A DNA stretch of 64,000 bases from NCBI GenBank assembly GCA_045606425.1, contig JAZURV010000004.1, forward strand, positions 120,987 through 184,986. The letters are read 5' to 3'. A program made the translations under genes and the position numbers. The notes under the pieces are model-generated. The model was given only the letters and a program-made list of their open reading frames with translations, made no database searches and had not been told where the DNA came from. The stretch comes from Candidatus Enterousia sp. GTDB taxonomy: Bacteria > Pseudomonadota > Alphaproteobacteria > Rs-D84. Below are positions 9,335-48,097 of the stretch, piece by piece (positions within the stretch are counted from its first letter, which is position 1; the number at the start of each line of letters is the position of its first letter).

Positions 9335-9495
9335 GAAAAATCTCCTTTTTTATAGGGGAATATTAGTAAAAAAAAGAGAATAAGTAAAGCACCAATTTCC
9401 ATTCACACGAATATAAATACATATTATTTATTTTTATTCTTTTATTAAACTGAACGGCAGGCCATATTGTATGTTTTTAATTTGCATTATGTACA

Positions 9496-9527
9496 AAAAC
9501 ACCCCTGAAACAGGGGTGTTTTTTTCC
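9496..9527. terminator. Rho-independent terminator (bidirectional hairpin)
   Basis: aaaaacacccctgaaacaggggtgttttttt: a GC-rich 8-bp stem flanked by A-run and T-run, immediately downstream of the 9545..10966 gene on the minus strand. Confidence 0.7.
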
Positions 9528-18347: not shown

Positions 18348-18373
18348 AAAACGCCCAAGCGGGCGTTTTTTTT
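18348..18373. terminator. Bidirectional rho-independent terminator
   Basis: aaaacgcccaagcgggcgtttttttt between convergent serS and the 18372..18914 gene. Confidence 0.75.
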
Positions 18374-20894: not shown

Positions 20895-20923
20895 TAAAAA
20901 CCGCCAAAATGGCGGTTTTTTTA
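20895..20923. terminator. Bidirectional rho-independent terminator
   Basis: aaaaaccgccaaaatggcggttttttt between convergent typA and the first glycosyltransferase gene. Confidence 0.75.
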
Positions 20924-22144: not shown

Positions 22145-22202
22145 ATCATATTATAAATTTGTTATAATGTAAATAATATAAATAAAAAAGGACTATACAA
22201 AA

Positions 22203-24025: not shown

Positions 24026-24100
24026 TTAATAATATTATAGAGCCTAAACCCTTGAAAAGCAAATATAAACAATGTATAGTTATATCAAAGTGATAGCATT

Positions 24101-24937: not shown

Positions 24938-24941
24938 AGAA

Positions 24942-25781: not shown

Positions 25782-26739
25782 GTTTTTCAATTCTGCGTCT
25801 ATACCGCCATGCGTGAAAATCAGGCACATTGTCAAACACGCCCAATTTTTTCAAATCCAATAATCCAGATTTAATTTTGCGTAATTCGTCTTTATCGTCT
25901 ATTTGTTTAGCATAAACATAAACCCGTGACAAAATATCCCACATAAAACGCGATTTCCATCTGCGCCTATTCAACCAAGACATATTTGTCGACACCATAT
26001 ATTGGTAAGACAACCCAACAGCGGCGATTAAATTTTTAACAGATTTAATATAATCCGCCGTATGCAAAATAGACCCAGGATTCGCCGTATAACTATACAA
26101 AGGCAATTTTATTATACAAACAGTCGGGGTTTTAAACAAAACACGCGACCAAAAAACAAAATCTTCCAGCACACAAATATTTTCAGGACATTTTATATTT
26201 TTGATTAAATCTGTTTTATATAAATTACGCCAAACCACACACTGTTGAACATACCAAGAATCCATACCTTTGTCCCGGTTAGTAGCCCAATATAACAAAT
26301 GATTGGTAGTTTTTGTTTTAATATTTTTTACATCATATCTTTTATCAAACCAACCTGGGATATCAGCCGATGCATCACCACGCAAATACCGGAAAGAAAC
26401 AATATCAGTATTTTTTTCTTTTGCCAAATTATACACTATTTCAAAAGCCTGTGGATGGATACAATCATCACTGTCTAAAAACATAACATACGGTGTTTTA
26501 ACTTTTTTCATTGCTTCATTACGTGCCGCAGACAAACCACCGTTTTCTTTGTGAATAACGACAAATCTTTTGTCTTTTTTTGCGTATTCGTCCAAAATTT
26601 TTCCACAATTATCCGAACTGCCGTCATCAACACAAATTGCTGTCCAATCATGAAATGTCTGATTTAACAAACAATCCAAACATCTGTGCAGATATTTTTC
26701 AACATTATAAACCGGTATAATTACAGATATTTCAGCCAT
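25762..26739 (-). CDS. Glycosyltransferase family 2
   Basis: ISVIIPVYNVEKYL...DDGSSDNCGKILDEYAKKDKRFVVIHKENGGLSAARNEAMK...DSDD. Confidence 0.85.
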   Translation of the reverse strand: MAEISVIIPVYNVEKYLHRCLDCLLNQTFHDWTAICVDDGSSDNCGKILDEYAKKDKRFVVIHKENGGLSAARNEAMKKVKTPYVMFLDSDDCIHPQAFEIVYNLAKEKNTDIVSFRYLRGDASADIPGWFDKRYDVKNIKTKTTNHLLYWATNRDKGMDSWYVQQCVVWRNLYKTDLIKNIKCPENICVLEDFVFWSRVLFKTPTVCIIKLPLYSYTANPGSILHTADYIKSVKNLIAAVGLSYQYMVSTNMSWLNRRRWKSRFMWDILSRVYVYAKQIDDKDELRKIKSGLLDLKKLGVFDNVPDFHAWRYRRRIEKLISQIS

Positions 26740-27762
26740 TTAGTTTTCTTCCCCAATAAATTCATAAATTTTTTCCCGCAAATCATACCATTCGTTTGGC
26801 ACATCATCGAACACGCCAATTTTGTTCATTTCAGAAAATTCAGCACGCGCCACATCGAATTCAGCATCAGATTTCAAATACTTTAATTTTCTAAACGCCC
26901 AATTCACAAACAACCACATAAATTGTTCCTGCCATTTTTTCATTTGGTCATTATCTGCCTTTTCTTTATACAATTGAAAAGATGTTTTTATCCCGATGCA
27001 TAAACTTTGCATAATTTTTAACTGTTTTGCAGACAACACAATCCCACCAAAATTCGGGATATAAAAATACAGTGGCAACGGCACAACGGTCACACGCGGT
27101 TTCTTTAACATAATCGCAGACCACCACGGAAAATCTTCGAACAAAATACCCTTGATAAACGGTGTATCTGCAATCAAAGATTTTTTATAAAGGTTTTTCC
27201 AAACCTGACAATGTTTAATCAGCCATTTACGATTTGGATTCAATTTATTATGCGTGCGTTCTGTGGCAAATTCGAAAACATCATCTGTTGTCCGCATTGG
27301 AATTTTATTCAAATCATATTTTTTCTTGATACCGAACGGAACGACATTATCAGTGTCCAAACGCAGAACATGTCGCACCATCAGTTGCGGCCGATAAAAC
27401 CGGTCATAGGTAAAAGACACTATATCAGATTTATTTTTAACCAATGCATTATACGCAATTTCCATAGTCTGGGGATGAATAAAATCATCACTGTCCAGGA
27501 ACATTATATATTCCCCAGTCGCATATTTCATACCGAAATTACGCGCATCAGACAAACCACCGTTTTCTTTGTGCACAACAACAAACCGTTTATCGCGGGC
27601 GGCATAAGATTCTGCGATGCTACCCGATTTATCTGGGCTGCCATCATCAACACAAATCGCCTGCCAATCTTGAAAAGTCTGATTTAATACACTGTCCAAA
27701 CAACGGGGCAGATATTTTTCCACACCCCACATTGGAATAATTATGGATATTTTTGGTTTCAT
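26740..27762 (-). CDS. Glycosyltransferase family 2 (tandem paralog of 25762..26739)
   Basis: ISIIIPMWGVEKYL...DDGSPDKSGSIAESYAARDKRFVVVHKENGGLSDARNFGMK...DSDD; the two tandem copies share much of their N-terminal GT2 region by eye. Confidence 0.85.
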   Translation of the reverse strand: MKPKISIIIPMWGVEKYLPRCLDSVLNQTFQDWQAICVDDGSPDKSGSIAESYAARDKRFVVVHKENGGLSDARNFGMKYATGEYIMFLDSDDFIHPQTMEIAYNALVKNKSDIVSFTYDRFYRPQLMVRHVLRLDTDNVVPFGIKKKYDLNKIPMRTTDDVFEFATERTHNKLNPNRKWLIKHCQVWKNLYKKSLIADTPFIKGILFEDFPWWSAIMLKKPRVTVVPLPLYFYIPNFGGIVLSAKQLKIMQSLCIGIKTSFQLYKEKADNDQMKKWQEQFMWLFVNWAFRKLKYLKSDAEFDVARAEFSEMNKIGVFDDVPNEWYDLREKIYEFIGEEN

Positions 27763-27773
27763 AAATTATACCT

Positions 27774-28661
27774 TTACATCTTTGAAATTGCCTCTGCAAA
27801 GGTGCCTGGTAACGGCGCATCTGCATAGGCGCATTTTTGAAAGAATGAATCTTTGGTTAATTTCTTGAACAGTTTTGCATCATATGGTTTATGTTTATAT
27901 TCATGCCACAATGCGTGTGTTGGGTCTTGGTCAATATGTGGCATTTCTGCAAAGTATTTTATTGCCCGCGGATCATTTTCAACCAAAGTTCTGAATAACA
28001 ATTGGTGCATAAAATAATCAAAACTGTGATTTTCGTGCATCCAATAATCCAAAATCATCGCACGCCACGCCGCCAATAAATACGCCCCCTTGCGCGCACG
28101 GATAAAGCAATTTTGCATATAAGAATATTTTTGCCCGACATTACCAACCATAAAAACAAAGAAATCCAAATCGATAATCCAATCTGGAATTGGTTCTGTC
28201 ACAAATGCAGTAGAATCCAACCAAATCCCCCCATGTTCATAAAGCAATTCAACACGGACAATATCTGCAAAATGTGCGCGTCTGATTTTCCCAGCACGAT
28301 ATTTTTCAACAATTTCGCGTGGCAAATTTACATATTGTTCGAAATTATTATCGTCCAGAACAACCAATTCTTGCTTGCAGTGTTTACGCACGCTGCGAAA
28401 GCACGCCTTTACCAAATCAGGGGCTTTTTCTTCGCCCTGTTGCCACATTGTCCAAATTTTTTCATTTTCATCATCTTTGACAATCGGCATTTCTTTGACC
28501 GCGGCGGCGGCTGGCAAATATCGCTTGAAATAACGCACTGCGATTTTTGCGAACACATCACATCGCACGGCACTGCGCACCGCGCGCGGACGCCACACCC
28601 AATTTAAAATATGTGCCCGAACCACAATCTGTGTCAATGCCCATGCGCGCGATATATTCAT
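27774..28661 (-). CDS. Glycosyltransferase with DXD sugar-binding region (GT32/Caps_synth-like)
   Basis: HFADIVRVELLYEHGGIWLDSTAFV matches the Gly_transf_sug (GT32, Och1-like) motif. Confidence 0.6.
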   Translation of the reverse strand: MNISRAWALTQIVVRAHILNWVWRPRAVRSAVRCDVFAKIAVRYFKRYLPAAAAVKEMPIVKDDENEKIWTMWQQGEEKAPDLVKACFRSVRKHCKQELVVLDDNNFEQYVNLPREIVEKYRAGKIRRAHFADIVRVELLYEHGGIWLDSTAFVTEPIPDWIIDLDFFVFMVGNVGQKYSYMQNCFIRARKGAYLLAAWRAMILDYWMHENHSFDYFMHQLLFRTLVENDPRAIKYFAEMPHIDQDPTHALWHEYKHKPYDAKLFKKLTKDSFFQKCAYADAPLPGTFAEAISKM

Positions 28662-33530: not shown

Positions 33531-33560
33531 AAAAACGCCGCTCAACCGAGCGGTGTTTTT
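33531..33560. terminator. Bidirectional rho-independent terminator
   Basis: aaaaacgccgctcaaccgagcggtgttttt between convergent secB and paralog-A ORF. Confidence 0.7.
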
Positions 33561-33933
33561 ATTCGCAATATTTATTTTTATAAACTTCTATTGCTGTATC
33601 AAACCAAAAATATGGTTGATTTCGTGCACATAATTCCCGAACAAAAGAATCATAAATATCTGGTCTAAAAACCAAAAAATCACAAAAATACGCATTTACC
33701 AAATTCCATTCTGACGCAAACAGAAAAAGTTCGTCTGTGAATCCGTCCGCATAATCTTCCCTGTCCATAAAAAAGGTATCGCCATCTGTAAAGAAATAAA
33801 TCGTACCGCGCCTGTCCAGTGCACCAGATTGTGATATCATAAAAAACAACATTTTTGATGAAATGTCTTTTCTTACCGCACCTGGTGTTGTTCTTTGGAA
33901 ATTGACGCGCTTTATACAAATTGAATTTTCCAT
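33559..33933 (-). CDS. Hypothetical 124-aa protein, paralog A (about 80% identical to the 37197..37571 product)
   Basis: The probable start is the internal Met (MENSICIK) with an aggga SD. The frame is conserved between the two diverged copies. No recognised domain. Confidence 0.6.
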   Translation of the reverse strand: MENSICIKRVNFQRTTPGAVRKDISSKMLFFMISQSGALDRRGTIYFFTDGDTFFMDREDYADGFTDELFLFASEWNLVNAYFCDFLVFRPDIYDSFVRELCARNQPYFWFDTAIEVYKNKYCE

Positions 33934-34150
33934 ATTATCCCTGTCTTTTGTAAAAAACAAAGACCACTAAAAAATAAGTCGTCGGGGGTTAGAACAGCAT
34001 AGTAGTGAATGCTCCACCAAAGTGGCACCCCGCCCATAAGTCAGGGATATGGCACAAAAGCACCATAAACAGATTACGATGCTTATTGCACCGCACTACT
34101 ACGGGATGTTCTAAATCCCTAACCCAATTCCCATTGGATTCATGTATTAT
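33934..34150 (-). promoter_or_regulatory. Structured RNA leader/attenuator element, copy A
   Basis: About 200 nt upstream of paralog A. The 5' end carries the dyad CCAATTCCCATTGG (34124-34137). A multi-stem core includes P1 (GUAGUAGUG/CACUACUAU) and a CCAC-UUUG-GUGG hairpin. A weak terminator-like hairpin with U-run lies immediately before the start codon. It is homologous to copy B (36960..37196) with compensatory P1 changes. Confidence 0.6.
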
Positions 34151-34154
34151 TATA

Positions 34155-34205
34155 ATTGTGATTATTCAAAAAAGCAACTAAAAACGGCGCATCTGCGCCG
34201 TTCAA
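34155..34205 (-). terminator. Rho-independent terminator downstream of yebC
   Basis: Minus-strand hairpin aacggcgcagatgcgccgtt followed by tttagttgctttttt. Confidence 0.55.
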
Positions 34206-36942: not shown

Positions 36943-36959
36943 ATACATTTGCTTTTCTA

Positions 36960-37196
36960 AATAATCCAATTTATAATAATATATGAATCCAATGGGAATT
37001 GGGTTTGGGATTTAGAACATCTCTCTATCTAGGCGGTGCATAAAGCATCGTAATCCGCTTATGGTGCTTTTGTGCCATATTCCCTGACTTATGGTCGGGG
37101 TGCCACTTCGGTGGAGCATGCCTAGATATGCTGTTCTAACCCCCGACCGCTTGTTTTTTTCAGCGGTCTTTGTTTTTTACAAAAGACAGGGATAAT
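36960..37196 (+). promoter_or_regulatory. Structured RNA leader/attenuator element, copy B
   Basis: Dyad CCAATGGGAATTGG (36989-37002). P1 is AUCUAGGC (37027-37034) pairing with GCCUAGAU (37120-37127), enclosing sub-hairpins including CCAC-UUCG-GUGG. A terminator hairpin gaccgc..gcggtc (37145-37168) plus T-run ends 16 nt before the ATG at 37197. Confidence 0.65.
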
Positions 37197-37571
37197 ATGG
37201 AAAATTCAATTTGTATAAAGGGCGTCAATTTCCAAAGAACAACACCAGGTGCGGTAAGAAACGATATTTCATCAAAAATGTTGTTTTTTATGATATCACA
37301 ATCTGGTGCACTGGACAGGCGCGGTACGATTTATTTCTTTACGCCAACCGGCGCTTACTTTATGGAACTGGAAGATTATACAGCCGAATTCAAAGATGAA
37401 CTTTTTATATTCACATCAGAATGGAATTTGGTAAATGCATATTTTTGTGATTTTTTGATTATAAGACCAGATGTTTATGATTCTTTTATTCACGAATTAT
37501 GTGCAAAAAACATTCGTGATTTTTGGTTTGATACGGCAATAGAAATTTATCGAAATAAATATTGCGAATAA
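37197..37571 (+). CDS. Hypothetical 124-aa protein, paralog B
   Basis: MENSICIKGVNFQRTTPG...; about 80% identical to paralog A. It is oriented away from the central yebC-ruvA-mnmE segment, mirroring copy A. Confidence 0.6.
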   Translation: MENSICIKGVNFQRTTPGAVRNDISSKMLFFMISQSGALDRRGTIYFFTPTGAYFMELEDYTAEFKDELFIFTSEWNLVNAYFCDFLIIRPDVYDSFIHELCAKNIRDFWFDTAIEIYRNKYCE

Positions 37572-37600
37572 AAAAACGCCCAAACGGGCGTTTCTTTATT
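37571..37600. terminator. Bidirectional rho-independent terminator
   Basis: aaaaaacgcccaaacgggcgtttctttatt between paralog B and the convergent fadD-like gene 1. Confidence 0.7.
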
Positions 37601-39176
37601 CTTTTCTGTCTGGATATTTACCATTTATCAAATTCTTGCGCACTTCGTGGTGTTTAATCTTTTGAGTGCTGGTCATCGGCAAATCTTCCGTTGTCATCGC
37701 AAAATGGGTCACCCATTTATAGGATGCAACTTTTTTATTTTGTTCTGCGATTTCTTTGGAAAGTTTATCCATTGTCATATCTTTGTCGACACTGAAAACC
37801 CCATATGAAACAGTCTTGTCCCCAACCTTGTGTTCAAAGACAGCAACATTTTTAACGCCTTCGATTTCCAGATAAAGTGCTTCCAATTCATCAGGATAAA
37901 CATTTTTACCGCTGTCCAAAACAATTACTTGTTTTTTACGGCCGGCAAAGTGCAATTCGCCATTTTTATCCATGTACATCATGTCCCCAGTATTAAACCA
38001 ACCGTCTTGGTCAAATACAGTCGCATTGACTTCATCATTATTCAGATATCCATTAAACACCTGATGTCCACGCAACCATAAAACACCAACGCCATTTTCA
38101 TCTTTGTCGCGAATTTCGCATTCATTATTAGATGTTGGCGCCCCAACTGAATAAGCCAATCTTTTATTTGTTGGTTTGGAAATACAGATTGGTCCAACAG
38201 TTTCAGTCAAACCGTATCCCTGAATAAATGCCAGACCAAGCGATTCATAGAAATTTTCAACCTCTGGCTTGGTCGCGGCACCACCTGCAATCAGCAACTT
38301 TGCGCGTCCACCAAAAACATTTAACAAAGGTTCCTGAACTTTACGGACAAAGAAATCCAATCCCATATCTTTCAATGTTTTTTGGTTTCTTAAAATAAAT
38401 GATGCGACACGCCATTTATTTTGTTCTTTCATTGTTGTTATAATCTTGTTACGGAACAATTCCCAAACACGTGGAACGGCAGGTATAACATGCGGTTGGA
38501 ATTTCTTGAAATCGTCCAAGATATATTTTGGATTTATTGTTGGCTGCAAAACGAGTGACGCACCATAATGAATTGTTGCCAAAATACCGATTGCAAAACC
38601 GAATATATGATACAGTGGCAAAAATCCATACATAACATCACCAGAATGGAAATATTCAGACATATCTTCCAATGAATTTGCGCATTCTGTTAAATTAAAG
38701 TGTGTCAGTGGCACAACCTTTGGTGTTCCGGTTGACCCAGATGTAAACGACAGCGTCGCAACATCTGTGGATTCAGACGGATATGGGCGCAAATCATAAT
38801 CTATGTCGCCATCTTTTTTTGTTATGTCATAGAATTTAAATTTGTCTGTTTTATAAAAGAACGATGGTTCTGCGCACACAAATTTGCACCCCACGATTTC
38901 ACACATTTTATCATATTCGATTGGTGTTAAATTTGTATCCAGCATCAAAACCGTTCCACCCAAATACCATACCGCAAACAAAGTCAATGGGAACTGGGGC
39001 AAATTATGCGATAAAACACCAACAATATCGCCATGTTTGATACCCATTTTATTTAATGTTGCTGCACGGGCGCGAACCTGGTCTATAAATTGTGCATAGG
39101 TCACATTTTCACGAACCAGAAACAAATTTTCCGGCCATTGGTTCACTGCGTTTTCTAATTTTTGATACATATTCAT
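37596..39176 (-). CDS. AMP-dependent synthetase/ligase (long-chain acyl-CoA/acyl-ACP synthetase, FadD-like), copy 1
   Basis: AMP-binding motifs TSGSTGTPKVV, YGLTE, GWFNTGD, GRKKQVIVLDSGKNVYPDELE and C-terminal LPMTSTQK. The probable start is MNMYQKL at 39176; the ORF-track N-terminus extends 12 aa further to 39212. Confidence 0.8.
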   Translation of the reverse strand: MNMYQKLENAVNQWPENLFLVRENVTYAQFIDQVRARAATLNKMGIKHGDIVGVLSHNLPQFPLTLFAVWYLGGTVLMLDTNLTPIEYDKMCEIVGCKFVCAEPSFFYKTDKFKFYDITKKDGDIDYDLRPYPSESTDVATLSFTSGSTGTPKVVPLTHFNLTECANSLEDMSEYFHSGDVMYGFLPLYHIFGFAIGILATIHYGASLVLQPTINPKYILDDFKKFQPHVIPAVPRVWELFRNKIITTMKEQNKWRVASFILRNQKTLKDMGLDFFVRKVQEPLLNVFGGRAKLLIAGGAATKPEVENFYESLGLAFIQGYGLTETVGPICISKPTNKRLAYSVGAPTSNNECEIRDKDENGVGVLWLRGHQVFNGYLNNDEVNATVFDQDGWFNTGDMMYMDKNGELHFAGRKKQVIVLDSGKNVYPDELEALYLEIEGVKNVAVFEHKVGDKTVSYGVFSVDKDMTMDKLSKEIAEQNKKVASYKWVTHFAMTTEDLPMTSTQKIKHHEVRKNLINGKYPDRKE

Positions 39177-39330
39177 TTTAATATCCTTTTTGTTTACTTT
39201 TTCGCTCGACACACAATAAAAAAAATCAAAAAAATCTTGTGAACTTCAATTTTTTAAGCTTTTTTTAATTGTGTGTTCTCGTATTCGCTCGCTTGGCACA
39301 ATTTGTGCCGGCTGCGCGGATAACGCAACG

Positions 39331-39362
39331 ATTGCGGAAGCAGTATTCACTGCTTCCGCAAT
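39331..39362. repeat. Perfect 13-bp-stem palindrome between fadD-like copies 2 and 1
   Basis: attgcggaagcag-tattca-ctgcttccgcaat lies 7 nt after the fadD-like-2 stop. There is no downstream U-run on the minus strand. Nearby palindromes are ggcacaatttgtgcc (39293-39308) and acacacaatt/aattgtgtgt (39199-39208 / 39268-39277). Confidence 0.5.
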
Positions 39363-39368
39363 CTGCTT

Positions 39369-40949
39369 TTATTCATGTCTGTTTGTATATTTACCGTCTA
39401 TCAACCATTGACGAACAACATGATGTTTAATTTTTTGAGTACTGGTCACCGGTAAATCGTCGGTTGTCATCGCAAAATGTGTCACCCATTTATAGGACGC
39501 AACTTTTTTATTTTTTTCTGCGACTGCGGCGGCCAATTTATCCATTGTCATACCTTCTTCGACACTGAATACGCCGTATGCGACGGTTTTGTCATTTACT
39601 TCATGTTCAAAAACCGCAACACTTTTTACACCATCGATTTCGATAAACAAGGCTTCCAATTCATCAGGATAAACATTTTTACCACTGTCCAAAACAATTA
39701 CTTGTTTTTTACGACCAGCAAAATGCAATTCGCCGTTTTTATCCTGCCATACTAAATCACCAGTACAGAACCAGCCATCTTTGTCAAACGATTCTTTATT
39801 CGCAGCATCATTATTTGCGTACCCGCCAAAGATTTGATTGCCACGAACCCACAGCATACCAATACCATCTTCGTCTTGGTTGCGAATTTGGATTTCAGTA
39901 TCACCCATCGGCGCACCAAATGCGTATGGCACACGTTTTTTCAGCGGGCGCGAACAACAGATTGGCCCCACAGTTTCGGTCATACCATAACCCTGAACGA
40001 ATGCCATTCCCAGTTGAGTATAGAATTTTTCAACCTCTGGTTTGGTCGCGGCACCACCTGCAACCAACAGACGCGCGCGTCCACCAAAAATTGCGCGAAT
40101 TTGATTCAAAACTTTATCAACCAGTTTTGACATACCCATTGCACGCAACAATTTTTGATTATTCATTACAAACGATACCAATCCCCATTTCTTTTTTGCC
40201 TTGATACCATCGATAATTTTCTTGCGGAAAATTTCCCACAACTTTGGCACCGCAGGAATAACCTGGGGTTTATATTGTGCAAAATCCGCCATAATTGCAT
40301 TTGGATTTATTGTTGATTGCAACAAAATTCCCATACCAAAATGCAACGGTGCCAAAAATCCAACTGCGAATCCAAACACATGGTACAATGGTAAAAAAGC
40401 ATAGAACATTTCACCAGGGCGCAACCACTGATTCAAATATTCCAAATTATCAGAACAAGAAACCAGATTAAAGTGTGTCAACGGCACAACCTTTGGCGTT
40501 CCAGTTGACCCCGATGTAAACGACAATGTTGCAATATCGCTGTCTTTCAATGGGTATGGCTTTAAAGATTCATCGTTTTTTTCGTCTTTCGTTTCAATAT
40601 CAAAAAACTTAAAGCCCTTTGCATCATAAAAGAAAGATTTTTCTGCACATACAATTTTACAACCTGTTATTTCGGTCATATTATCATATTCTGCAGAGGT
40701 TAAATTCGTATCCAACAACAAAACCGTTCCGCCCAGGTACCATATAGCGAACAAAGTTATTGGAAACTGTGGCAAATTATGCGCCAACAAACCAACAACA
40801 TCGCCCGGTTTTACACCCGCATCACGCAAAGTTGTCGCACGTGCCTGAACCAATTTCACTAATTCTTTAAATGTGACATTTTCACGAACCAAAAACACAG
40901 TTTCTGGGTTTCTTTCCACATTTTTTTCTAATAACTGATACATATTCAT
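39369..40949 (-). CDS. AMP-dependent synthetase/ligase (FadD-like), copy 2
   Basis: 526 aa with the same motif set (TSGSTGTPKVV, YGMTE, GWFCTGD, LPVTSTQK). Its ATG overlaps the TAA of copy 3 by 1 nt (TAATG). Confidence 0.8.
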   Translation of the reverse strand: MNMYQLLEKNVERNPETVFLVRENVTFKELVKLVQARATTLRDAGVKPGDVVGLLAHNLPQFPITLFAIWYLGGTVLLLDTNLTSAEYDNMTEITGCKIVCAEKSFFYDAKGFKFFDIETKDEKNDESLKPYPLKDSDIATLSFTSGSTGTPKVVPLTHFNLVSCSDNLEYLNQWLRPGEMFYAFLPLYHVFGFAVGFLAPLHFGMGILLQSTINPNAIMADFAQYKPQVIPAVPKLWEIFRKKIIDGIKAKKKWGLVSFVMNNQKLLRAMGMSKLVDKVLNQIRAIFGGRARLLVAGGAATKPEVEKFYTQLGMAFVQGYGMTETVGPICCSRPLKKRVPYAFGAPMGDTEIQIRNQDEDGIGMLWVRGNQIFGGYANNDAANKESFDKDGWFCTGDLVWQDKNGELHFAGRKKQVIVLDSGKNVYPDELEALFIEIDGVKSVAVFEHEVNDKTVAYGVFSVEEGMTMDKLAAAVAEKNKKVASYKWVTHFAMTTDDLPVTSTQKIKHHVVRQWLIDGKYTNRHE

Positions 40950-42547
40950 TATAAACGCTCCCGTAATTTACTGGTATTTTCTGGATATTTGCCATCGATA
41001 AGATTCTGGCGCACTTCATGATGTTTAACCTTTTGTGTACTGGTCATTGGCAAATCATCAGTAGTCATCGCAAAATGGGTCACCCATTTATACGGCGCAA
41101 CCTTACGATTAGCCAGCGCAACTTGCGCCGCCAGTTTCAAAAAACTCATCCCCTTGTTCACCTGGAATACAGCATATGTGACGGTTTTATTTTTTTCTTT
41201 GTGTTCAAAAACTGCGACATTTTTTACGCCATCTATTTCCATGAACAATGCTTCCAATTCATCCGGATAAACATTTTTACCACTGTCCAGAACGATAACT
41301 TGTTTTTTGCGTCCTGCAAAATGATACTGTTTATTTTTATCCAGATAGACTAAATCACCGGTATTAAACCAACCGTCTTTGTCGAATGATTCAGAATTTG
41401 CCTCTGCATTATTCAAATATCCATTAAAGACATTTGGTCCGCGCACCCACAGTGTTCCAATACCTTTTTCATTGGCATCACGAATTGTGCATTCTGAACA
41501 ACCAATTGGTGTTCCAAACGCGAACGGCACACGATGTTTCGACGGACGCGAACAACAGAATGGCCCAACCGTTTCAGTCATACCATATCCCTGAACAAAG
41601 GTGATTCCCAATGATTCATAGAATTTTTCAACCTCTGGTTTTGTCGCGGCGCCGCCCGCAATCATCAAATTCACACGCCCACCAAAGATGTCACGCAACG
41701 GTTTTTGTACCTTTTTAACCAGTTTACCCAACCCAATTGCACGCAAAAACTTTTGCCGACGCAATACGAAAGACACAAACCACCACATATGTTTTTCTTT
41801 GACCCCGCTGATGATTTTATTACGGAACACTTCGTAAAGGCGCGGCACCGCCGGAATACAGTGTGGTTTATAAACCCTAAAATCTTCCAATATATTTTTT
41901 GGATTTACGGTTGGCTGTAATAAAATTCCCATGTGGAAATACATAGGTGCCAAAATACCACCTGCAAAACCGAATATATGATACAGCGGCAAAAAACCAT
42001 ACATTATTTCGTTTTTATGAATCCATTGTCCCATATCTGCGTAATAATCAGACGAACTTTTCAGATTTCCATGCGTCAGTGGCACAACCTTTGGATTGCC
42101 AGTCGAACCTGATGTAAAGGACAGCGTTGCAATATCATCAGATTTCAAATCTGCAGGTTTCACATTGGCATCGGCTGCATCATCAGTGCTTTGTATATCA
42201 AAGAACTTAAATCCCCTGGCCTTGTAAAAGAATGATTTTTCGGCGCACACGAATTTGCACCCCACCCTTTTGGTCATATTATCATATTCGAACGGTGTTA
42301 AATTTGTATCCAACAACAAAACCGTACCACCCAAATACCATATCGCGAAAAGTGTCAATGGAAATTCTGGAATATTATGCGCCAACAAACCAACGACATC
42401 GCCCTGCTTTACCCCGGCGTTATGCAAAGTCGTCGCGCGTGCATGAATCAAATCCAGCGCCATTTTAAATGTGATTTTTTCGCGTACCAAAAACAAAGCA
42501 TCTGGCGATTCTTTCGCCACTTGCTTGAACACTTGATACATATTCAT
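40949..42547 (-). CDS. AMP-dependent synthetase/ligase (FadD-like), copy 3
   Basis: 532 aa with the same conserved motifs (TSGSTGNPKVV, YGMTE, GWFNTGD, LPMTSTQK). Confidence 0.8.
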   Translation of the reverse strand: MNMYQVFKQVAKESPDALFLVREKITFKMALDLIHARATTLHNAGVKQGDVVGLLAHNIPEFPLTLFAIWYLGGTVLLLDTNLTPFEYDNMTKRVGCKFVCAEKSFFYKARGFKFFDIQSTDDAADANVKPADLKSDDIATLSFTSGSTGNPKVVPLTHGNLKSSSDYYADMGQWIHKNEIMYGFLPLYHIFGFAGGILAPMYFHMGILLQPTVNPKNILEDFRVYKPHCIPAVPRLYEVFRNKIISGVKEKHMWWFVSFVLRRQKFLRAIGLGKLVKKVQKPLRDIFGGRVNLMIAGGAATKPEVEKFYESLGITFVQGYGMTETVGPFCCSRPSKHRVPFAFGTPIGCSECTIRDANEKGIGTLWVRGPNVFNGYLNNAEANSESFDKDGWFNTGDLVYLDKNKQYHFAGRKKQVIVLDSGKNVYPDELEALFMEIDGVKNVAVFEHKEKNKTVTYAVFQVNKGMSFLKLAAQVALANRKVAPYKWVTHFAMTTDDLPMTSTQKVKHHEVRQNLIDGKYPENTSKLRERL

Positions 42548-42617
42548 AACATAAAATCCTTGTTGTTTTTATATTGGACATCGTGTATTATAGTACCAGA
42601 AAACAAAGATTGCAATT

Positions 42618-43392: not shown

Positions 43393-44085
43393 TTATTCTG
43401 GTGCGTTAAAGGTCCAACCGGTAAAGATTTTTCCATTAATATGTTGGGCCTTTAGCGGTGTATGTATATCCCCGCCATAGGTGACGTTGCCGGCGTTGTT
43501 TGCGGTTATGTCCGCCGCATCAGCATGATCCCAAGTGATTGAAATAGTATTCGCAGTGCAAACCGACGAACCCGCAGGCGCAGAATACCCCGTCGCACAG
43601 GCACTTATACCCTGGTCGATGTTTTCGTTAAAACTATACGTTCCACCAACAGAATAACTATTCGCGGGGCATTGTGTGCACGCATCCACGTCGGCAGGCA
43701 AGTAATACCCGACTGAACAAGTATGTGTATTTGGGACAAATTCTGCCACCAGATTACCATTATAAAGTAAATCCCTGGAACAACCCTTTTCTACATTTTC
43801 GACAATAGGTAAAGTATAAACAATTCCTTGGTCAATATTTTGGTTAAATCTAAAATTTCCACCACTGCAAGTGTGTCCAGATAAACAAGATGTACACCCG
43901 TCAATATTTGCGGGCAAATAATAACCGGACGAACAATTATACAGCGTCGGTTCGAACAGAGCGGTCAGTGTTGCTGGGTTATAATCAAAAGAGCAACCGT
44001 TCGCGGTATTTTCTGAAAATATTTCAGCGTATGCAAAGTTTGCATATGATATAAAAACGCCCAAGATAAAAACTAATTTTTTCAT
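43393..44085 (-). CDS. Secreted Cys-rich protein with two ephrin-receptor-like (GCC2_GCC3-type) repeats
   Basis: Signal peptide; an internal duplication of a roughly 75-aa module, CSSGYYLPANIDGCTSCLSGHTCSGGNFRFNQNIDQGI and CSVGYYLPADVDACTQCPANSYSVGGTYSFNENIDQGI; C-terminal GKIFTGWTF. Confidence 0.55.
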   Translation of the reverse strand: MKKLVFILGVFISYANFAYAEIFSENTANGCSFDYNPATLTALFEPTLYNCSSGYYLPANIDGCTSCLSGHTCSGGNFRFNQNIDQGIVYTLPIVENVEKGCSRDLLYNGNLVAEFVPNTHTCSVGYYLPADVDACTQCPANSYSVGGTYSFNENIDQGISACATGYSAPAGSSVCTANTISITWDHADAADITANNAGNVTYGGDIHTPLKAQHINGKIFTGWTFNAPE

Positions 44086-44091
44086 CTTTTT

Positions 44092-44802
44092 TTATTCGGA
44101 CAAAGACCAACTTTCTTCCACCGGTTCCGCCAACGGGTAATAACAAGTGACTGGTTGACCGGCGGCATATCTTTCCGCCAACCACGTATTAAATTCTGTT
44201 TGATTTGCAAATCTGCTATCTGTGACATTAAATTGAATTGTATTATTTTCACTTGCACCTAAATAGAATGTGTTATTTTTGACCAGTCCCCATTTCTGAT
44301 AATTCGAATAATAATTGCAAATAGGGACATCTTGTTTTATTGAACGTTGAACATTGCTTGTTAAGGTCCCTGAGATACAATAAAAACTATCTGGGCCAAA
44401 CCAGTTTTCTCTCCAGCTTTCGTTTCCTTTTAGTATTAATACTCCGACACGACGTGTAATTTTTTCACTGGAAGGATTATATTCGTCAGCTACGAAATCT
44501 TCCCCACTGCCCAATGCGCGCAAAACAGTATCGCCCAGTTGATAAAATACTGGTTCTATGGGATTTGTCGGGGTTGGCGTCCCAGATTGTGACCAAGTGC
44601 CGGTTATAACACCATAATTCCATCCGACAAATGTATAACCGTATTTTGTTGGCGACGTTTGCGGAATTATCAGATTGCCACCTGATTCACAGGTGCTGGT
44701 TGAATATGTTGTGTCTCCTACTTTCCAATTTACATTTATTGTTTCGGCAAATACGATATTGCATATTAAAACCACACCAAAAAACACGAAAAACTTCTTC
44801 AT
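44092..44802 (-). CDS. Secreted protein with Listeria-Bacteroides-repeat-like motif
   Basis: The probable start is MKKFFVFFGVVLICNIVFA (ATG at 44800-44802; the ORF-track extension uses TTG). It contains YGYTFVGWNY. Confidence 0.55.
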   Translation of the reverse strand: MKKFFVFFGVVLICNIVFAETINVNWKVGDTTYSTSTCESGGNLIIPQTSPTKYGYTFVGWNYGVITGTWSQSGTPTPTNPIEPVFYQLGDTVLRALGSGEDFVADEYNPSSEKITRRVGVLILKGNESWRENWFGPDSFYCISGTLTSNVQRSIKQDVPICNYYSNYQKWGLVKNNTFYLGASENNTIQFNVTDSRFANQTEFNTWLAERYAAGQPVTCYYPLAEPVEESWSLSE

Positions 44803-44814
44803 CCTTGTCCCCCG

Positions 44815-45045
44815 TTTTTGCAAACAAAAAACCGCCAAAGGAATTTTAGGCGGTCGGGGAGTTGGTAAATCACATTGTTATAGATTTCCGCGCCTTACGG
44901 TAAGCGGCTCCCCAACCTTGTTAGTTAGGGATGATAACGGTGCAAAAAACACCAAAAATATCAAATTAACGATGCATTTGCACCGAACAATGTGGGCTAC
45001 CACAGCCCCGAACCCAATCCCTTGGATTCATTTGTATCATATCAT
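44815..45045 (-). promoter_or_regulatory. Structured RNA leader / sRNA-like element, copy C
   Basis: The 5' end AUGAAUCCAAGGGAUUGGGUUCGGGG (dyad CCAATCCCTTGG 45014-45025) and the 3' end CCCCGACCGCC-loop-GGCGGU + UUUUUGUUUG terminator (44831-44856) match elements A and B; the middle differs. It ends about 12 nt upstream of the 44092..44802 gene. Confidence 0.5.
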
Positions 45046-45066: not shown

Positions 45067-47517
45067 CTAATCACCGACACGCGCCAAATCATCAAATTCA
45101 TGATATTTTGCGCCAACACTTTCGCGGTATTCGTATGCCGCAACTTTGTCTGTGCTGTATTGACCAAATAATTCACGCACCTTTTGCACACTGTTATCTA
45201 TCATTTCTTGTGCGATTTCATCACTATATTCTATCAATTCAGGATTGCCGTTTTTCAGTTGCAAAAACTGTATTATTGGCGTTATTGAAACATCTTTCAT
45301 TTTTAATGGAAAACCATTATTTTGCATCATGAATGCTTCCAATGGCAACTGTGGCATAGTGCCCTCCATCAACTGTTTTTTTGTTGGTGGGTTGCCGGTT
45401 TTTATATCCATTACAACACCGTCCCATACAATATCAGCGCGCGCCCGAACATTGCGCCCCATAATATTTACAGACCCCAATATTTCTTTGTATTCAATCG
45501 ATTTGTTTTGAAAGAATTCTTCAACAAATGGCGCAATTTCACAAAACCGTTTATGCCAAAAATAAAACAATATTGAATCAGACGGCAAAACCTGTTTTGC
45601 CCGTATATCCATTTCATCTATCAGTTTTTGTGCATTGAAATCACGCGCGTTTTCAATCACATCATGTACCAAAATCCCAAAATTACGCGCATCTGGCAAA
45701 ACCCAATAATCGTCCAGTTTTTTCAATCGCAAAATATGTTTTACATAAAACGCATACGGGTTATGAATCAGCAATTCTAAATCTGTCACAAAAACATCAC
45801 TTTTATCGATTGGTGGTGTTGGCGGCGAATAATCCAGTGGTTTGTACGGTACATCATCTATCGCCCGTACAGATTTCAACATTTCGTTATCAACGAATAT
45901 ATCACCAACCGCGACGCGAACACGGGAAATGAATCGTGATTCAGTGGTCAGTGTTCCGCCTGATTGTTTTGAACGCAACCAATATACTTCATTTCCACAC
46001 GACAAATTCATAAAATCCAGTGCCATCAAAGATACCTTGCGATTTGGTGACGGCAGTCCTATTTTCGCGGCAACATCACGCGGCAACCATGCGTTTTCAT
46101 ACCCCAGCGACGGAAACATTCCTTCGTTCAATCCAGTCAGTATTATTACATCTGCGCCCTGCATACGCGATTCTATTGTACCCAAAACACAAACATCACA
46201 ATCTTCGTTTTTAACCGGACGAATTGAAACACCACCAATTGCATCGGCAATAAATGCGCGTGCATCATAAACATTTAACACAATATCGTTTGCACATAAA
46301 ATATCTGCGGTTTCTTTTATCGCATTCCAAATTGGAATATCACTGTCATTTTCAATTGTAAATGTTGGCTGAAAAACAGTTTCACCATGTTCATCAACAA
46401 ACGCAACCAACATATTAAACAAATTGTAATTATGTTGTGCATATAATTTTTCAAATTCTTTTTGATTATTTTCAATCCAATCATCAAACAAATTCAATAT
46501 CGCGCGCCCCAAATCTGTCATTGTCCCAGATATACCAGACGAAAAATCTGCATCTATACCCGCACGCGTCATTTCTGATTTTATTCGCTGATTCGCGGCG
46601 GCATCAGGCGTAATTATCAACACAGATTTATTTTCATAAACCGCGCGCTGTGCAATCTGTGTCGCGGTCAGTGCCTCTTCACTTTCACGGACGCATTCTA
46701 TAATTTTACAGTTATTCAATTTTTTATCAGCATGCGCCCCAGTATTTCCAAACGCGATATTCATTGTATCGATTTGGCTTTCGCCGACATCTATGGTCTG
46801 CACATCGTCCGCATTTAACCCCAAACGATTCAGAAACAAATATTCGCTGTGATACGGGTTAGTGTCCAATTCAAAATCTTCTATTTCGCCCGATATTTTT
46901 CCAGACAAAATAATTTTTCCATTTGATAATTTTGCGACGCATTCCATTAAATCAGCCGTTGCCGGAACAGACGCGGTTGACCCACACACAATCACGCAAT
47001 CATATTTATTCAGGTGATTTTTCCATGCACGAATGTCAGCATTTCTTTTCTGGGTTGTCGTCAATCGGTCATTTGGTAATTGCTTTAAAATATCCAGTAT
47101 GCGCGCTTTATTTTGAAAATGCGTTGCATATTTATCGTCTATCAGTGACAACCAATCTATGTCGGCAATCTGAATACCTTCGTTTTCCAGATAATCCTGC
47201 ATACGAACGAAATCACGGGCAATCGGCAATGCAGTCGCAATATTTCCAACATTCGCGTCCATCGACAAAAGCCGCGCCAAAATAATAATTCTTTCACGAT
47301 TTGATATTGTACCGGGATATGTTTCATCTGTTTCTTCGTCGTCCACCCCATCACCCAGCGGAACAAGATTTGGCAAAATAATCGCATGCCCTGTTTTTTC
47401 AACAATAAATCTTTCCATGCTTCTGATTGCGCGACGCGACGGCAAAAAAATCAAGACGCGCGAAAAATCATTTTTATATTCCGCAATCATATCCCACAAC
47501 GCGTCCAAAATACGCAT
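45067..47517 (-). CDS. addB: Double-strand break repair protein AddB
   Basis: AddB-like N-terminus (MRILDALWDMI...VLIFLPSRRA) and C-terminal PD-(D/E)xK nuclease (DIKTG). The ORF track extends to 47724, but that would overlap engB; the start is probably near 47517. No addA partner is in the window. Confidence 0.7.
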   Translation of the reverse strand: MRILDALWDMIAEYKNDFSRVLIFLPSRRAIRSMERFIVEKTGHAIILPNLVPLGDGVDDEETDETYPGTISNRERIIILARLLSMDANVGNIATALPIARDFVRMQDYLENEGIQIADIDWLSLIDDKYATHFQNKARILDILKQLPNDRLTTTQKRNADIRAWKNHLNKYDCVIVCGSTASVPATADLMECVAKLSNGKIILSGKISGEIEDFELDTNPYHSEYLFLNRLGLNADDVQTIDVGESQIDTMNIAFGNTGAHADKKLNNCKIIECVRESEEALTATQIAQRAVYENKSVLIITPDAAANQRIKSEMTRAGIDADFSSGISGTMTDLGRAILNLFDDWIENNQKEFEKLYAQHNYNLFNMLVAFVDEHGETVFQPTFTIENDSDIPIWNAIKETADILCANDIVLNVYDARAFIADAIGGVSIRPVKNEDCDVCVLGTIESRMQGADVIILTGLNEGMFPSLGYENAWLPRDVAAKIGLPSPNRKVSLMALDFMNLSCGNEVYWLRSKQSGGTLTTESRFISRVRVAVGDIFVDNEMLKSVRAIDDVPYKPLDYSPPTPPIDKSDVFVTDLELLIHNPYAFYVKHILRLKKLDDYWVLPDARNFGILVHDVIENARDFNAQKLIDEMDIRAKQVLPSDSILFYFWHKRFCEIAPFVEEFFQNKSIEYKEILGSVNIMGRNVRARADIVWDGVVMDIKTGNPPTKKQLMEGTMPQLPLEAFMMQNNGFPLKMKDVSITPIIQFLQLKNGNPELIEYSDEIAQEMIDNSVQKVRELFGQYSTDKVAAYEYRESVGAKYHEFDDLARVGD

Positions 47518-47542
47518 TGGATTTGAAACATTAAAGATATTG

Positions 47543-48097
47543 TTATTTGACACCGATAATATCCCGTAATTCGTCCAGACCAAATTTCTTTTCTGCAGAT
47601 GTTTCCAATATTTTTTCCACCATCGCAGGATGGTTTTCATGACTGATTTGCGATTGTTCTTTTTCACGAATTTTTTTATCTTTCTTTGTGTAAACAATTT
47701 GATAGCAAATTCCGTTTTTATCACAAAAATCCATCAGTTCAATATCAGATTCTTTTGGTCCAACACGCGAATCTATTAAAACAAACAGACGCCGCAATTG
47801 CGAACGATTTAATAAATATTCTTCCAACCGTTCCAGCCAACGCAGTGCTTCTACCTTGGACACGCGGGCATATCCATATCCCGGCAAATCAACAATCATG
47901 GATTTATCATTCATATTAAACAGATTCAAACTTTGCGTGCGCCCCGGCGTATTAGATGTCCGTGCAACCTTTTCCCCAACGACTGCATTTATCAACGAAG
48001 ATTTTCCAACATTACTGCGCCCGACAAAGGCATATTCTGCGAATTGAGTATTCGGCAAAGATTTAACTGTTTCAAAAGAGCCAACAAATTTAATCAT
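47543..48097 (-). CDS. engB: Ribosome biogenesis GTP-binding protein EngB (YihA/YsxC)
   Basis: 184 aa; G1 GRSNVGKSSLIN, G3 DLPGYG, NKxD-like TKKDK. Confidence 0.88.
   Translation of the reverse strand: MIKFVGSFETVKSLPNTQFAEYAFVGRSNVGKSSLINAVVGEKVARTSNTPGRTQSLNLFNMNDKSMIVDLPGYGYARVSKVEALRWLERLEEYLLNRSQLRRLFVLIDSRVGPKESDIELMDFCDKNGICYQIVYTKKDKKIREKEQSQISHENHPAMVEKILETSAEKKFGLDELRDIIGVK

What the first reader, a model, noticed from the sequence alone, without database searches (positions are those of the whole stretch)
37596..42547. Three tandem FadD-like acyl-CoA/acyl-ACP synthetase paralogs with translational coupling
Three consecutive minus-strand genes of about 530 aa carry full AMP-binding motif sets and a conserved N-terminus (MNMYQ..E...E.P...FLVREN). 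Copies 3 and 2 overlap by 1 nt (TAATG). Copy 1 is separated by a 156-bp spacer containing a perfect 13-bp-stem palindrome with no U-run and two further palindromes.

Possible roles are a ligase set with distinct substrates (for example host-lipid scavenging via acyl-ACP synthetase activity) or activation of a non-lipid acid. This is speculative.
Basis: partly seen in the sequence, partly recalled or inferred. Interest (0 to 1): 0.6.

Follow-up and report, generated by a model that had tools for sequence, protein, structure and literature searches.

The report
Tandem fatty-acid ligase trio, Enterousia
A tiny-genome rumen bacterium that reportedly cannot make its own lipids carries three old, intact, diverged copies of a fatty-acid-activating enzyme in a row, most likely to load different scavenged fatty acids into its membrane; this is a sensible but fairly ordinary gene-family expansion.

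Summary
Three co-directional minus-strand genes (37596-39176, 39369-40949, 40949-42547) encode 526-532 aa AMP-binding (ANL) ligases. They are 63-68% identical and carry all core motifs. Copies 3 and 2 overlap by 1 nt. A 192-bp spacer (not 156) with a perfect 15-bp hairpin (not 13) precedes copy 1.

The window comes from Candidatus Enterousia (order Rs-D84), a gut/rumen alphaproteobacterium with a <1 Mb genome reported to lack lipid biosynthesis.

In 80 species-level genomes the slot Xth-[ligase]-MnmE holds one gene in most (human, chicken, hindgut). It grew in place to two or three genes, mainly in rumen lineages. The three gene lineages are old (dS about 1), intact, and under strong purifying selection (dN/dS 0.03-0.12).

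Divergence sits in the acyl-binding N-terminal domain; the C-terminal domain is almost unchanged. No curated family reaches its cutoff. In an exhaustive search of 1.84 billion proteins, their sister clade is the ligase module of ligase-ACP-PlsC acyltransferase fusions.

Best reading: these are fatty-acid-activating enzymes with different acyl preferences. They feed scavenged fatty acids to membrane-lipid acyltransferases. The acceptor (ACP or CoA) is unresolved. This is a new member of a known kind, of moderate interest.

The parts
42587..42615 (-). Promoter-like site upstream of copy 3 (TTGCAA-17-TATAAT, 10 of 12 matches). It lies in the 70-bp divergent gap to the Xth gene.
   Evidence: consensus match only; sequence. 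Function is inferred.
40949..42547 (-). Copy 3 (c3), a 532-aa ANL ligase and the first gene of the array.
   Evidence: Its gene lineage has 60/60 bootstrap support. dN/dS versus orthologs is 0.03-0.11.
40947..40962 (-). The c3/c2 junction: GGGAG Shine-Dalgarno (40962-40958), then TAATG, where the c3 stop and c2 start share base 40949.
   Evidence: The same 1-nt overlap occurs in 8 of 24 three-copy relatives.
39369..40949 (-). Copy 2 (c2), a 526-aa ANL ligase.
   Evidence: Its gene lineage has 60/60 bootstrap support when the c2-like genes of L025/26 and L034/35 are included. dN/dS is 0.04-0.12. AF2 model has pLDDT 81.6.
39177..39368 (-). The 192-bp c2-c1 spacer, the longest among 32 arrays (13-113 nt elsewhere). 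It contains three inverted repeats and the c1 Shine-Dalgarno AAGGA at 39188-39184.
39330..39363 (-). Perfect 15-bp stem, 4-nt loop hairpin starting 6 nt after the c2 stop, with no U tract on the coding strand. Likely an intercistronic RNA hairpin.
   Evidence: It is unique in the window, and its exact arm sequence occurs in none of the 80 related loci. A diverged homologous hairpin in L030 differs by two compensated base pairs. All 12 spacers of at least 55 nt, including this one, carry a stable hairpin at this place (z -2.5 to -8).
37596..39176 (-). Copy 1 (c1), a 526-aa ANL ligase. It is the ortholog of the single-copy gene found in most Enterousia species.
   Evidence: c1 groups with all single-copy genes at 60/60 bootstrap. 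dN/dS is 0.03-0.08.
37574..37593 (-). Canonical intrinsic terminator 2 nt after the c1 stop (AAACGCCC-GTTT-GGGCGTTT followed by a T run). It is two-sided and shared with the convergent 133-aa ORF.
   Evidence: It has the same A-run/stem/T-run design as the other long hairpins of the window.

Best explanation
The three genes form one transcription unit: promoter-like site, then c3, c2 (start overlapping the c3 stop), an intercistronic hairpin, c1, and a terminator.

Each gene encodes a two-step adenylate-forming ligase. First a free fatty acid reacts with ATP to give acyl-AMP. Then the acyl group moves to a 4'-phosphopantetheine thiol, on either holo-ACP or CoA.

Candidatus Enterousia has a <1 Mb genome reported to lack lipid biosynthesis. 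The products would therefore supply glycerolipid acyltransferases with fatty acids scavenged from the gut.

The array grew in place from the single ancestral gene (c1) by two old tandem duplications. The copies then specialised. Their acyl-binding N-terminal domains diverged, while the C-terminal domain, which performs thioester formation and meets the acceptor, stayed nearly the same. This suggests one acceptor and different fatty-acid classes.

Shown: gene integrity, age, selection, the domain pattern of divergence, in-place expansion, and kinship to ligase-ACP-acyltransferase fusions. Inferred: fatty acids as substrates, the scavenging role, substrate partitioning, co-transcription, and the hairpin's role. 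The acceptor is unresolved, with a slight lean to ACP.
For: Enzyme class: PF00501 matches at E 1e-63 to 1e-67 with all catalytic motifs. The AF2 model has pLDDT 81.6, and every Foldseek hit is an ANL ligase.

Fatty-acid leaning:
- The best NCBIfam models are long-chain-fatty-acid-CoA ligase families, all below their cutoffs.
- Residues 391-415 read DGWFCTGDLVWQDKNGELHFAGRKK, which fits the FACS signature motif as I recall it from the literature.
- Source annotations call close relatives 'long-chain acyl-CoA synthetase'.

Fusion evidence:
- The search of 1.84 billion representatives finds the nearest non-Enterousia relatives at 33-45% identity.
- Outside the gut-alphaproteobacterial group, these are 815-895 aa proteins with AMP-binding, PP-binding and PF01553 acyltransferase domains. 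25 of 28 long relatives have this architecture.
- Their extensions carry intact DSL, NHQSxLD and FPEGTR motifs.
- The Enterousia group and an 11-member clade holding 9 such fusions (plus two stand-alone ligases, P0128 and P0132) are sister clades, with joint bootstrap 100/100.

Organism: Candidatus Enterousia / Rs-D84. PMC12306168 reports <1 Mb genomes lacking lipid biosynthesis, the TCA cycle and respiratory chains.

Expansion and specialisation:
- The Xth-[1 to 3 ligases]-MnmE order is conserved in all informative loci.
- The main gene lineages have 60/60 bootstrap support.
- dN/dS is 0.03-0.12 at dS about 1, with no stops in 74 genes.
- Between paralogs the C-terminal domain is 77-79% identical, against 50-68% for N-terminal regions.
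- One of 44 discriminating sites lies in the C-terminal domain (p=4e-4), and 31 of 44 lie in residues 160-350 (p=2e-6).
- Synonymous divergence in the C-terminal domain is high (pS 0.45-0.67), so this is not recent gene conversion.
Against: - No biochemical data exist for this subfamily. No curated model reaches its cutoff, and identity to any solved structure is 25% or less.
- The top structural hit is a feruloyl-CoA synthetase, so a non-lipid acid is not excluded.
- The genes have no ACP or acyltransferase domain, and none is encoded in the 64-kb window or in 80 related 17-kb loci. A profile search with the ACP-acyltransferase module found no Enterousia partner.
- I could not survey a whole Enterousia genome for acpP, plsX/Y/C, fab or CoA genes. 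The 'no lipid synthesis' premise rests on one paper's statement.
- 'Single copy' refers to this locus only.
- Pocket mapping is by motif alignment, not by coordinates.
Confidence: 0.6

Rival explanations
1. They are ordinary acyl-CoA synthetases, not acyl-ACP synthetases. Scavenged fatty acids become acyl-CoA, which acyl-CoA-accepting acyltransferases use directly. This differs from the main reading only in the acceptor.
For: By sequence and fold they sit with CoA ligases (feruloyl-, oxalyl-, malonyl-CoA ligases, MenE, 4CL). The best NCBIfam models are CoA ligases. Enterousia-type genomes use acetyl-CoA (PMC12306168).
Against: The sister clade loads a fused carrier domain. From general knowledge, alphaproteobacteria normally use PlsX/PlsY/PlsC, which need acyl-ACP, and lipid A synthesis needs acyl-ACP. 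The window encodes LptF/G, which implies LPS.
Confidence: 0.4
2. They activate non-lipid carboxylic acids that are abundant in the rumen, such as phenylpropanoids like ferulate, or other aromatic or dicarboxylic acids. The role would be catabolism or detoxification, with each copy taking a different acid.
For: The best solved-structure matches are a feruloyl-CoA synthetase, oxalyl-CoA synthetases, MenE and 4-coumarate ligases. The three-copy arrays occur mainly in rumen MAGs.
Against: Identities to those structures are only 18-25%. Closer relatives are fused to glycerolipid-type acyltransferases. The FACS-type motif is present. The organism is reported to lack the TCA cycle and respiration, and no downstream aromatic pathway genes lie nearby.
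Confidence: 0.12
3. The copies are functionally redundant and kept for gene dosage. The sequence differences are neutral drift.
For: Tandem duplication is a common route to higher dosage. One ligase gene at this locus is what most Enterousia species have.
Against: Each gene lineage is conserved separately across about 24 species, with dN/dS 0.03-0.12. 44 sites are fixed differently per paralog and cluster in the substrate-binding half. Drift would not spare the C-terminal domain so selectively. In a <1 Mb genome, 5 kb of redundancy is unlikely to persist to dS about 1.
Confidence: 0.1
4. They are catabolic FadD enzymes that feed beta-oxidation for energy.
For: Generic similarity to long-chain acyl-CoA synthetase models.
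Against: The lineage is reported to lack the TCA cycle and any respiratory chain (PMC12306168). No fadA/B/E-type genes lie in the window. The FadD equivalog cutoff is missed by a wide margin.
Confidence: 0.03

Closest known systems
Tri-domain ligase-ACP-PlsC(AGPAT) proteins (uncharacterised). Examples: Candidatus Termititenax dinenymphae GBR77523.1, and many Spirochaetota, Margulisbacteria and other MAG proteins. PMC8460268 mentions fusions of FAAL-like domains with lysophospholipid acyltransferases.
   Same: The ligase module is the nearest relative outside the gut alphaproteobacteria: 33-38% identity over the full length. It shares the ~50-aa helical insertion before the FGGR motif and the IVLxSGKNVYPxE motif. 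It is the sister clade with 100/100 joint bootstrap.
   Different: The Enterousia genes are stand-alone ligases with no carrier or acyltransferase domain. No such gene lies nearby. The fusions are single genes, not paralog arrays.
Soluble acyl-ACP synthetases for exogenous fatty acids (Vibrio harveyi AasS and AasS-type isoenzymes; PMC12086093, PMC11271967).
   Same: The proposed job is the same: an ANL enzyme that lets a cell use outside fatty acids for lipid synthesis, bypassing FASII.
   Different: There is no special sequence kinship. No chain named as an acyl-ACP synthetase is among the best 60 PDB sequence matches or the best 50 Foldseek matches. The acceptor here is untested.
E. coli Aas (2-acyl-GPE acyltransferase / acyl-ACP synthetase). 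This comparison is from my own knowledge.
   Same: The same pairing of a fatty-acid ligase with a PlsC-type acyltransferase, as in the sister-clade fusions.
   Different: Aas has the acyltransferase at the N-terminus and no fused ACP. The window proteins have no acyltransferase domain at all.
E. coli-type FadD long-chain acyl-CoA synthetase.
   Same: ANL fold, ATP/AMP motifs, a FACS-type signature, and similar length.
   Different: They score 140-158 bits against the FadD equivalog cutoff of 884. They have an extra helical insertion at residues 240-292. The host has no apparent beta-oxidation context.
Linked fadD1-fadD2 paralogs of Pseudomonas aeruginosa (PMC2958839).
   Same: Adjacent paralogous fatty-acid ligase genes. 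That paper reports different fatty-acid preferences for them, so it is a precedent for substrate partitioning by tandem copies.
   Different: Those serve fatty-acid degradation in a large-genome aerobe. Here the host is a reduced-genome fermenter, and the copies belong to a different ANL subfamily.

Membership tests
ANL superfamily (class I adenylate-forming enzymes, PF00501) | Full-length match to the AMP-binding model, plus core motifs A3 (T/S-S-G-x-T-G-x-P-K), A5 (GYGxTE), A7 (TGD), A8 (GRxK) and the A10 catalytic Lys. | tested here: met
   213-227 bits against a cutoff of 29.9 for all three copies. The motifs are invariant in the three copies and in 45 homologs. The fold is confirmed.
E. 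coli-type FadD (NCBIfam NF006523 equivalog) | Whole-protein score at or above the curated cutoff of 884 bits. | tested here: not met
   158, 145 and 140 bits. None of more than 100 matching NCBIfam models reaches its cutoff.
Long-chain fatty acyl-CoA synthetases (FACS signature motif; motif recalled from the literature) | A 25-residue signature of the type DGWLHTGDxxxxxxxGxLxIxDRKK. | tested here: met
   c2 residues 391-415 read DGWFCTGDLVWQDKNGELHFAGRKK. D391, G392, W393, T396, G397, D398, R413, K414 and K415 are invariant in all three copies. The motif was compared by eye.
Fatty acyl-AMP ligases (FAAL) | FAAL-specific insertion and helix, a plugged CoA pocket, and loss of CoA-phosphate-binding Arg/Lys (PMC8460268). 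| tested here: inconclusive
   Classical FAAL structures (EcFAAL, FadD32/28) are not among the best 60 sequence or best 50 fold matches. Only FadD10 appears, and low in the list. The insertion seen here (240-292) lies before motif A5, not at the FAAL site. Residue-level pocket features could not be mapped without model coordinates.
AasS-type acyl-ACP synthetase | Thioesterification of fatty acids to holo-ACP. | not testable with these tools
   This is defined by biochemical activity. There is no close sequence relation to solved AasS. The only indirect support is the carrier-domain fusion in the sister clade.
Aas-type bifunctional acyltransferase/acyl-ACP synthetase | A PlsC-type acyltransferase domain in the same polypeptide. 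| tested here: not met
   Only AMP-binding domains were found in c1-c3.
Ligase-ACP-PlsC tri-domain proteins | PP-binding and PF01553 domains C-terminal to the ligase. | tested here: not met
   c1-c3 end 10-15 residues after the A10 region. No ACP or acyltransferase ORF exists in the window or in 80 related loci. The ligase module itself is the sister clade of these proteins.

The most novel reading that the evidence does not exclude
The trio would be stand-alone acyl-ACP synthetases, sister to the ligase module of ligase-ACP-acyltransferase enzymes. Together they would let a diderm bacterium without FASII build both its phospholipids and its lipid A entirely from scavenged acids. Each paralog would be dedicated to one class, for example saturated, unsaturated or branched, and 3-hydroxy fatty acids. 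The expansion from one to three copies would be an adaptation to the fatty-acid-rich rumen. The recurring intercistronic hairpin would set the expression ratio between the new copies and the ancestral one.
Probability: 0.2. Interest if true: 0.6.

Novelty: new member of a known kind. Interest (0 to 1): 0.4.

Why it matters
Enterousia and the rest of order Rs-D84 are uncultured gut and rumen bacteria with genomes under 1 Mb. How they obtain membrane lipids is unknown. These ligases use about 5 kb, roughly 0.5% of such a genome, and are under strong constraint. They are a concrete candidate for the lipid entry point.

Their kinship to ligase-ACP-acyltransferase fusions gives a testable route: fatty acid, then carrier, then glycerolipid.

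The one, two or three-copy series across hosts offers a natural experiment on substrate specialisation after duplication. Beyond that, this is a routine paralog expansion of a very large enzyme superfamily.

Tried and rejected
1. Is the palindrome a repeated (REP/MITE-like) element? No. Its arm sequence occurs only at this site in the window and, as an exact match, in none of the 80 related loci.
2. Is the spacer a known RNA? No Rfam hit at the gathering threshold. Only chance-level hits appear at E up to 1.
3. Is the palindrome a standard terminator? Rejected for the coding strand, which has no U tract. The window's other long hairpins are all A-run/stem/T-run terminators. On the opposite strand it scores as terminator-like, but the relatives' hairpins do not share that feature (my reading of the sequences).
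4. Is there an internal sigma-70 promoter for c1 in the spacer? None at 9 of 12 matches or better on the coding strand.
5. Is C-terminal similarity due to gene conversion? Rejected. pS is 0.45-0.67. Same-genome pairs (0.55) are only slightly below cross-genome pairs (0.62).
6. Is there an ACP or PlsC partner near the array? None in the window or in the 80 loci. A profile search with the fusion proteins' ACP-acyltransferase module returned other phyla only. Two apparently stand-alone ACP-acyltransferase genes were checked (P0316, P0293). P0316 lies immediately downstream of split ligase fragments (L082). For P0293 the upstream genes have no family match.
7. Can the source contig be found by exact protein look-up? 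Not on record.
9. The 2023 Enterousia paper is not held in the library.
10. The neighbours orf133, orf230 and orf248 have no family match.
Full report
**Observation.** Three minus-strand ORFs lie at 37596-39212 (true start most likely the ATG at 39176), 39369-40949 and 40949-42547. Their products are 526, 526 and 532 aa. Each matches the Pfam AMP-binding model over its whole length (E 4e-67, 3e-65, 7e-63). They are 63-68% identical to each other. They share the N-terminus MNMYQ...FLVRE and all core adenylation motifs, including the catalytic lysine.

The c3 stop and c2 start share one base (TAATG), with GGGAG 8 nt upstream. The c2-c1 spacer is 192 bp when measured to the conserved ATG. The palindrome is a perfect 15-bp stem with a 4-nt loop at 39330-39363 and has no U tract on the coding strand. 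Two further inverted repeats follow it.

**Transcription signals.** A promoter-like site (TTGCAA-17-TATAAT, 42615-42587) precedes c3. A canonical hairpin-plus-T-run terminator (37593-37574) follows c1 by 2 nt. This anatomy suggests one transcription unit, but that is inferred.

**Organism.** The closest genomes among 185,579 species representatives are MAGs named Candidatus Enterousia or 'Alphaproteobacteria bacterium', from rumen, reticulum, ileum, colon and faeces of ruminants, horses, chickens and humans. Enterousia belongs to order Rs-D84. One paper reports that this order has genomes under 1 Mb. It also reports that the order lacks pathways for amino acids, nucleotides and lipids, as well as the TCA cycle and respiratory chains (PMC12306168).

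The rest of the window is housekeeping: RecA, RuvABC, SecB, SecDF, MnmE, YebC, MutL, FtsK, LptF/G, a Lol-like ABC system, Xth, an AddB-like nuclease and two tRNAs. It contains no fatty-acid or phospholipid genes other than a PAP2 phosphatase.

**History of the array.** In all informative loci the ligase genes sit between Xth and MnmE.
- About 45 species have one gene there (72-75% identical to c1).
- About 10 have two.
- Twenty-four have the same c3-c2-c1 array. Two more (L034, L035) have three genes in a different order.

Neighbour-joining trees give three groups with 60/60 bootstrap support: c3; c2 together with the c2-like genes of some other multi-copy species (L025/L026, L034/L035); and c1 together with all single-copy genes. 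So c1 is the ancestral gene, and the array grew in place by old tandem duplications.

Against their orthologs the three genes show dN/dS of 0.03-0.12 at dS about 1. None of 74 genes has an internal stop.

Three-copy arrays come mostly from rumen or foregut MAGs. Single copies come from human, chicken and hindgut or faecal MAGs. Two-copy arrays come mainly from horse-faeces MAGs and a few unassigned gut MAGs. This pattern is confounded with phylogeny. 'Single copy' describes this locus only.

**Where the paralogs differ.** 44 alignment columns are at least 90% conserved within each paralog lineage but differ between them. 31 of these lie in residues 160-350 (Fisher p=2e-6) and only one lies in the C-terminal domain, residues 413-526 (p=4e-4).

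| Region | Identity between paralogs | Identity within a lineage |
|---|---|---|
| C-terminal domain | 77-79% | 82-89% |
| A3-A4 region | 58-63% | about 90% |
| 240-292 insertion | 50-57% | 78-86% |

Synonymous divergence in the C-terminal domain is near saturation (pS 0.45-0.67), so recent gene conversion does not explain its similarity.

Its numbering reproduces the published specificity-code letters. Residues 296 (I/V/I in c1/c2/c3) and 330 (I/I/F) align to code positions 299 and 330. Discriminating sites 295, 323 and 332 lie next to these.

In ANL enzymes the N-terminal domain holds the acyl pocket. The C-terminal domain rotates to form the thioester with the incoming pantetheine. This is established knowledge of the superfamily. 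The pattern therefore fits one acceptor and different acids. This is an inference, because I had no model coordinates with which to map the tunnel.

**Family placement.** No NCBIfam model reaches its cutoff. The best are long-chain-fatty-acid-CoA ligase models at about 200-220 bits against cutoffs of 476-766. E. coli-type FadD scores 140-158 against 884. The best solved structures are generic CoA ligases at 18-25% identity: feruloyl-CoA synthetase, oxalyl-CoA synthetase, MenE, 4CL and MatB. They align in two pieces that skip residues 240-292. The AF2 model (pLDDT 81.6) builds this segment as four helices.

An exhaustive HMMER search of 1.84 billion cluster representatives found the nearest outside relatives at 33-45% identity.
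- The nearest are a few stand-alone ligases from other gut alphaproteobacterial MAGs and from Candidatus Termititenax.
- Next comes a set of 815-895 aa proteins with AMP-binding, PP-binding and PF01553 acyltransferase domains. 25 of 28 long relatives have that architecture.
- Their extensions carry the serine attachment motif DSL and the acyltransferase motifs NHQSxLD and FPEGTR.

In a bootstrapped tree of ligase modules, three groupings hold:
- The Enterousia clade has 100/100 support, and 95-100/100 when its stand-alone gut relatives are included.
- An 11-member clade, made of nine tri-domain fusions and two stand-alone ligases, has 87/100.
- The two together have 100/100.

The fusions share the 50-aa insertion and the IVLxSGKNVYPxE motif. 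This fusion evidence ties the subfamily to loading a fatty acyl group on a carrier and passing it to a glycerolipid acyltransferase. One relative is instead fused to a BirA-like biotin ligase, which I treat as uninformative.

**Mechanism proposed.** Each enzyme adenylates a free fatty acid and transfers it to a pantetheine thiol. In a cell reported to lack lipid synthesis, the products feed membrane-lipid acyltransferases. The three copies divide the available fatty acids among them. I put 0.6 on this overall reading.

The acceptor is open.
- The CoA-ligase-like sequence affinities favour CoA.
- The carrier-domain fusions of the sister clade favour ACP.
- The usual acyl-ACP dependence of alphaproteobacterial PlsX/Y/C and of lipid A synthesis also favours ACP. 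This is general knowledge, and LptF/G in the window imply LPS.

I could not find an ACP or acyltransferase gene in the window, in 80 related loci, or by profile search. I could not survey a whole genome.

**The spacer.** The 15-bp hairpin arm sequence is unique in the window, and no exact copy occurs in the 80 relatives. It is therefore not a dispersed repeat.

The place is nevertheless special. All 11 relatives whose c2-c1 spacer is at least 55 nt also have a stable hairpin a few bases after the c2 stop. The sequences differ and most lack a clear U tract. All fold better than shuffles (z -2.5 to -6.0; -8.0 for the window). The L030 hairpin is homologous to the window's and differs by two base pairs, each changed on both sides. 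Nineteen other arrays have 13-34 nt spacers and no hairpin.

The other long hairpins in the window are all A-run/stem/T-run terminators. This one is therefore a different kind of element. I read it as an intercistronic RNA hairpin acting as a partial terminator or a 3'-end stabiliser. It would uncouple c1 from c3-c2. This is inferred only, and it is optional within the genus.

The 1-nt overlap of c3 and c2 is likewise present in only 8 of 24 three-copy relatives.

**Verdict.** The genes are best filed as a new, uncharacterised subfamily within the ANL fatty-acid ligases, expanded in tandem in rumen Enterousia. It is not a new kind of system. What makes it worth noting:
- the reduced-genome host;
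- the clean pattern of domain-specific divergence;
- the link to ligase-ACP-acyltransferase fusions, which makes the lipid-scavenging route experimentally testable.

Noticed in passing
window 33553-34177 and 36949-37577: An inverted repeat of about 625 bp (84-97% complementary) flanks the YebC-RuvA-MnmE block. Each arm holds a 133-aa ORF (33559-33960 minus strand, 37170-37571 plus strand; 80% identical) with no Pfam match (the second copy also has no NCBIfam match). In relative L010 this block is inverted compared with all other loci, which suggests inversion between the arms. The right arm abuts the c1 terminator.
   Followed up: partly
window 57782-59566 (+): One 594-aa ORF combines an FtsA-like region (residues 184-331) with a ribulose-phosphate 3-epimerase domain (398-578), directly after FtsQ. 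It could be a real fusion, or two genes merged by a missing stop.
   Followed up: no
window 20921-28661: A cluster of eight glycosyltransferase or capsule-type genes. G+C drops to 0.33-0.37 across 22-28 kb, against about 0.40 elsewhere. This looks like a surface-polysaccharide island, possibly acquired.
   Followed up: no
window 43393-44838 (-): Two ORFs (230 and 248 aa) between Xth and the AddB-like nuclease. Among 80 related loci both occur in L010, and only the 230-aa one in L012. The only family hits are weak Listeria-Bacteroides repeat and internalin-like matches. A 473-aa ORF at 9545-10966 has the same repeat.
   Followed up: partly
L001-L080 (record titles) versus copy number: Ligase copy number tracks habitat. 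Three copies occur mostly in rumen, reticulum or other ruminant MAGs. Two occur mainly in horse-faeces MAGs. One occurs in human, chicken and ruminant hindgut or faecal MAGs. This is confounded with phylogeny.
   Followed up: partly
P0122 (relative from a 3.9-kb Logan contig): A 40%-identical relative of the ligase is fused to a BirA-like biotin-protein ligase domain (GRGKGQRIW motif). It may be a real fusion or a merged gene call.
   Followed up: partly
window 45067-47724 and 47543-48097 (-): The 885-aa AddB-like ORF, as listed from its GTG start, overlaps the upstream YihA GTPase ORF by 182 nt. Its real start is probably further downstream.
   Followed up: no
window 9495-9523, 18346-18371, 20896-20920, 50890-50913: The genome's intrinsic terminators are strikingly uniform two-sided A-run/GC-stem/T-run hairpins with 10-13 bp perfect stems. 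They could serve as a template for terminator annotation in this lineage.
   Followed up: no
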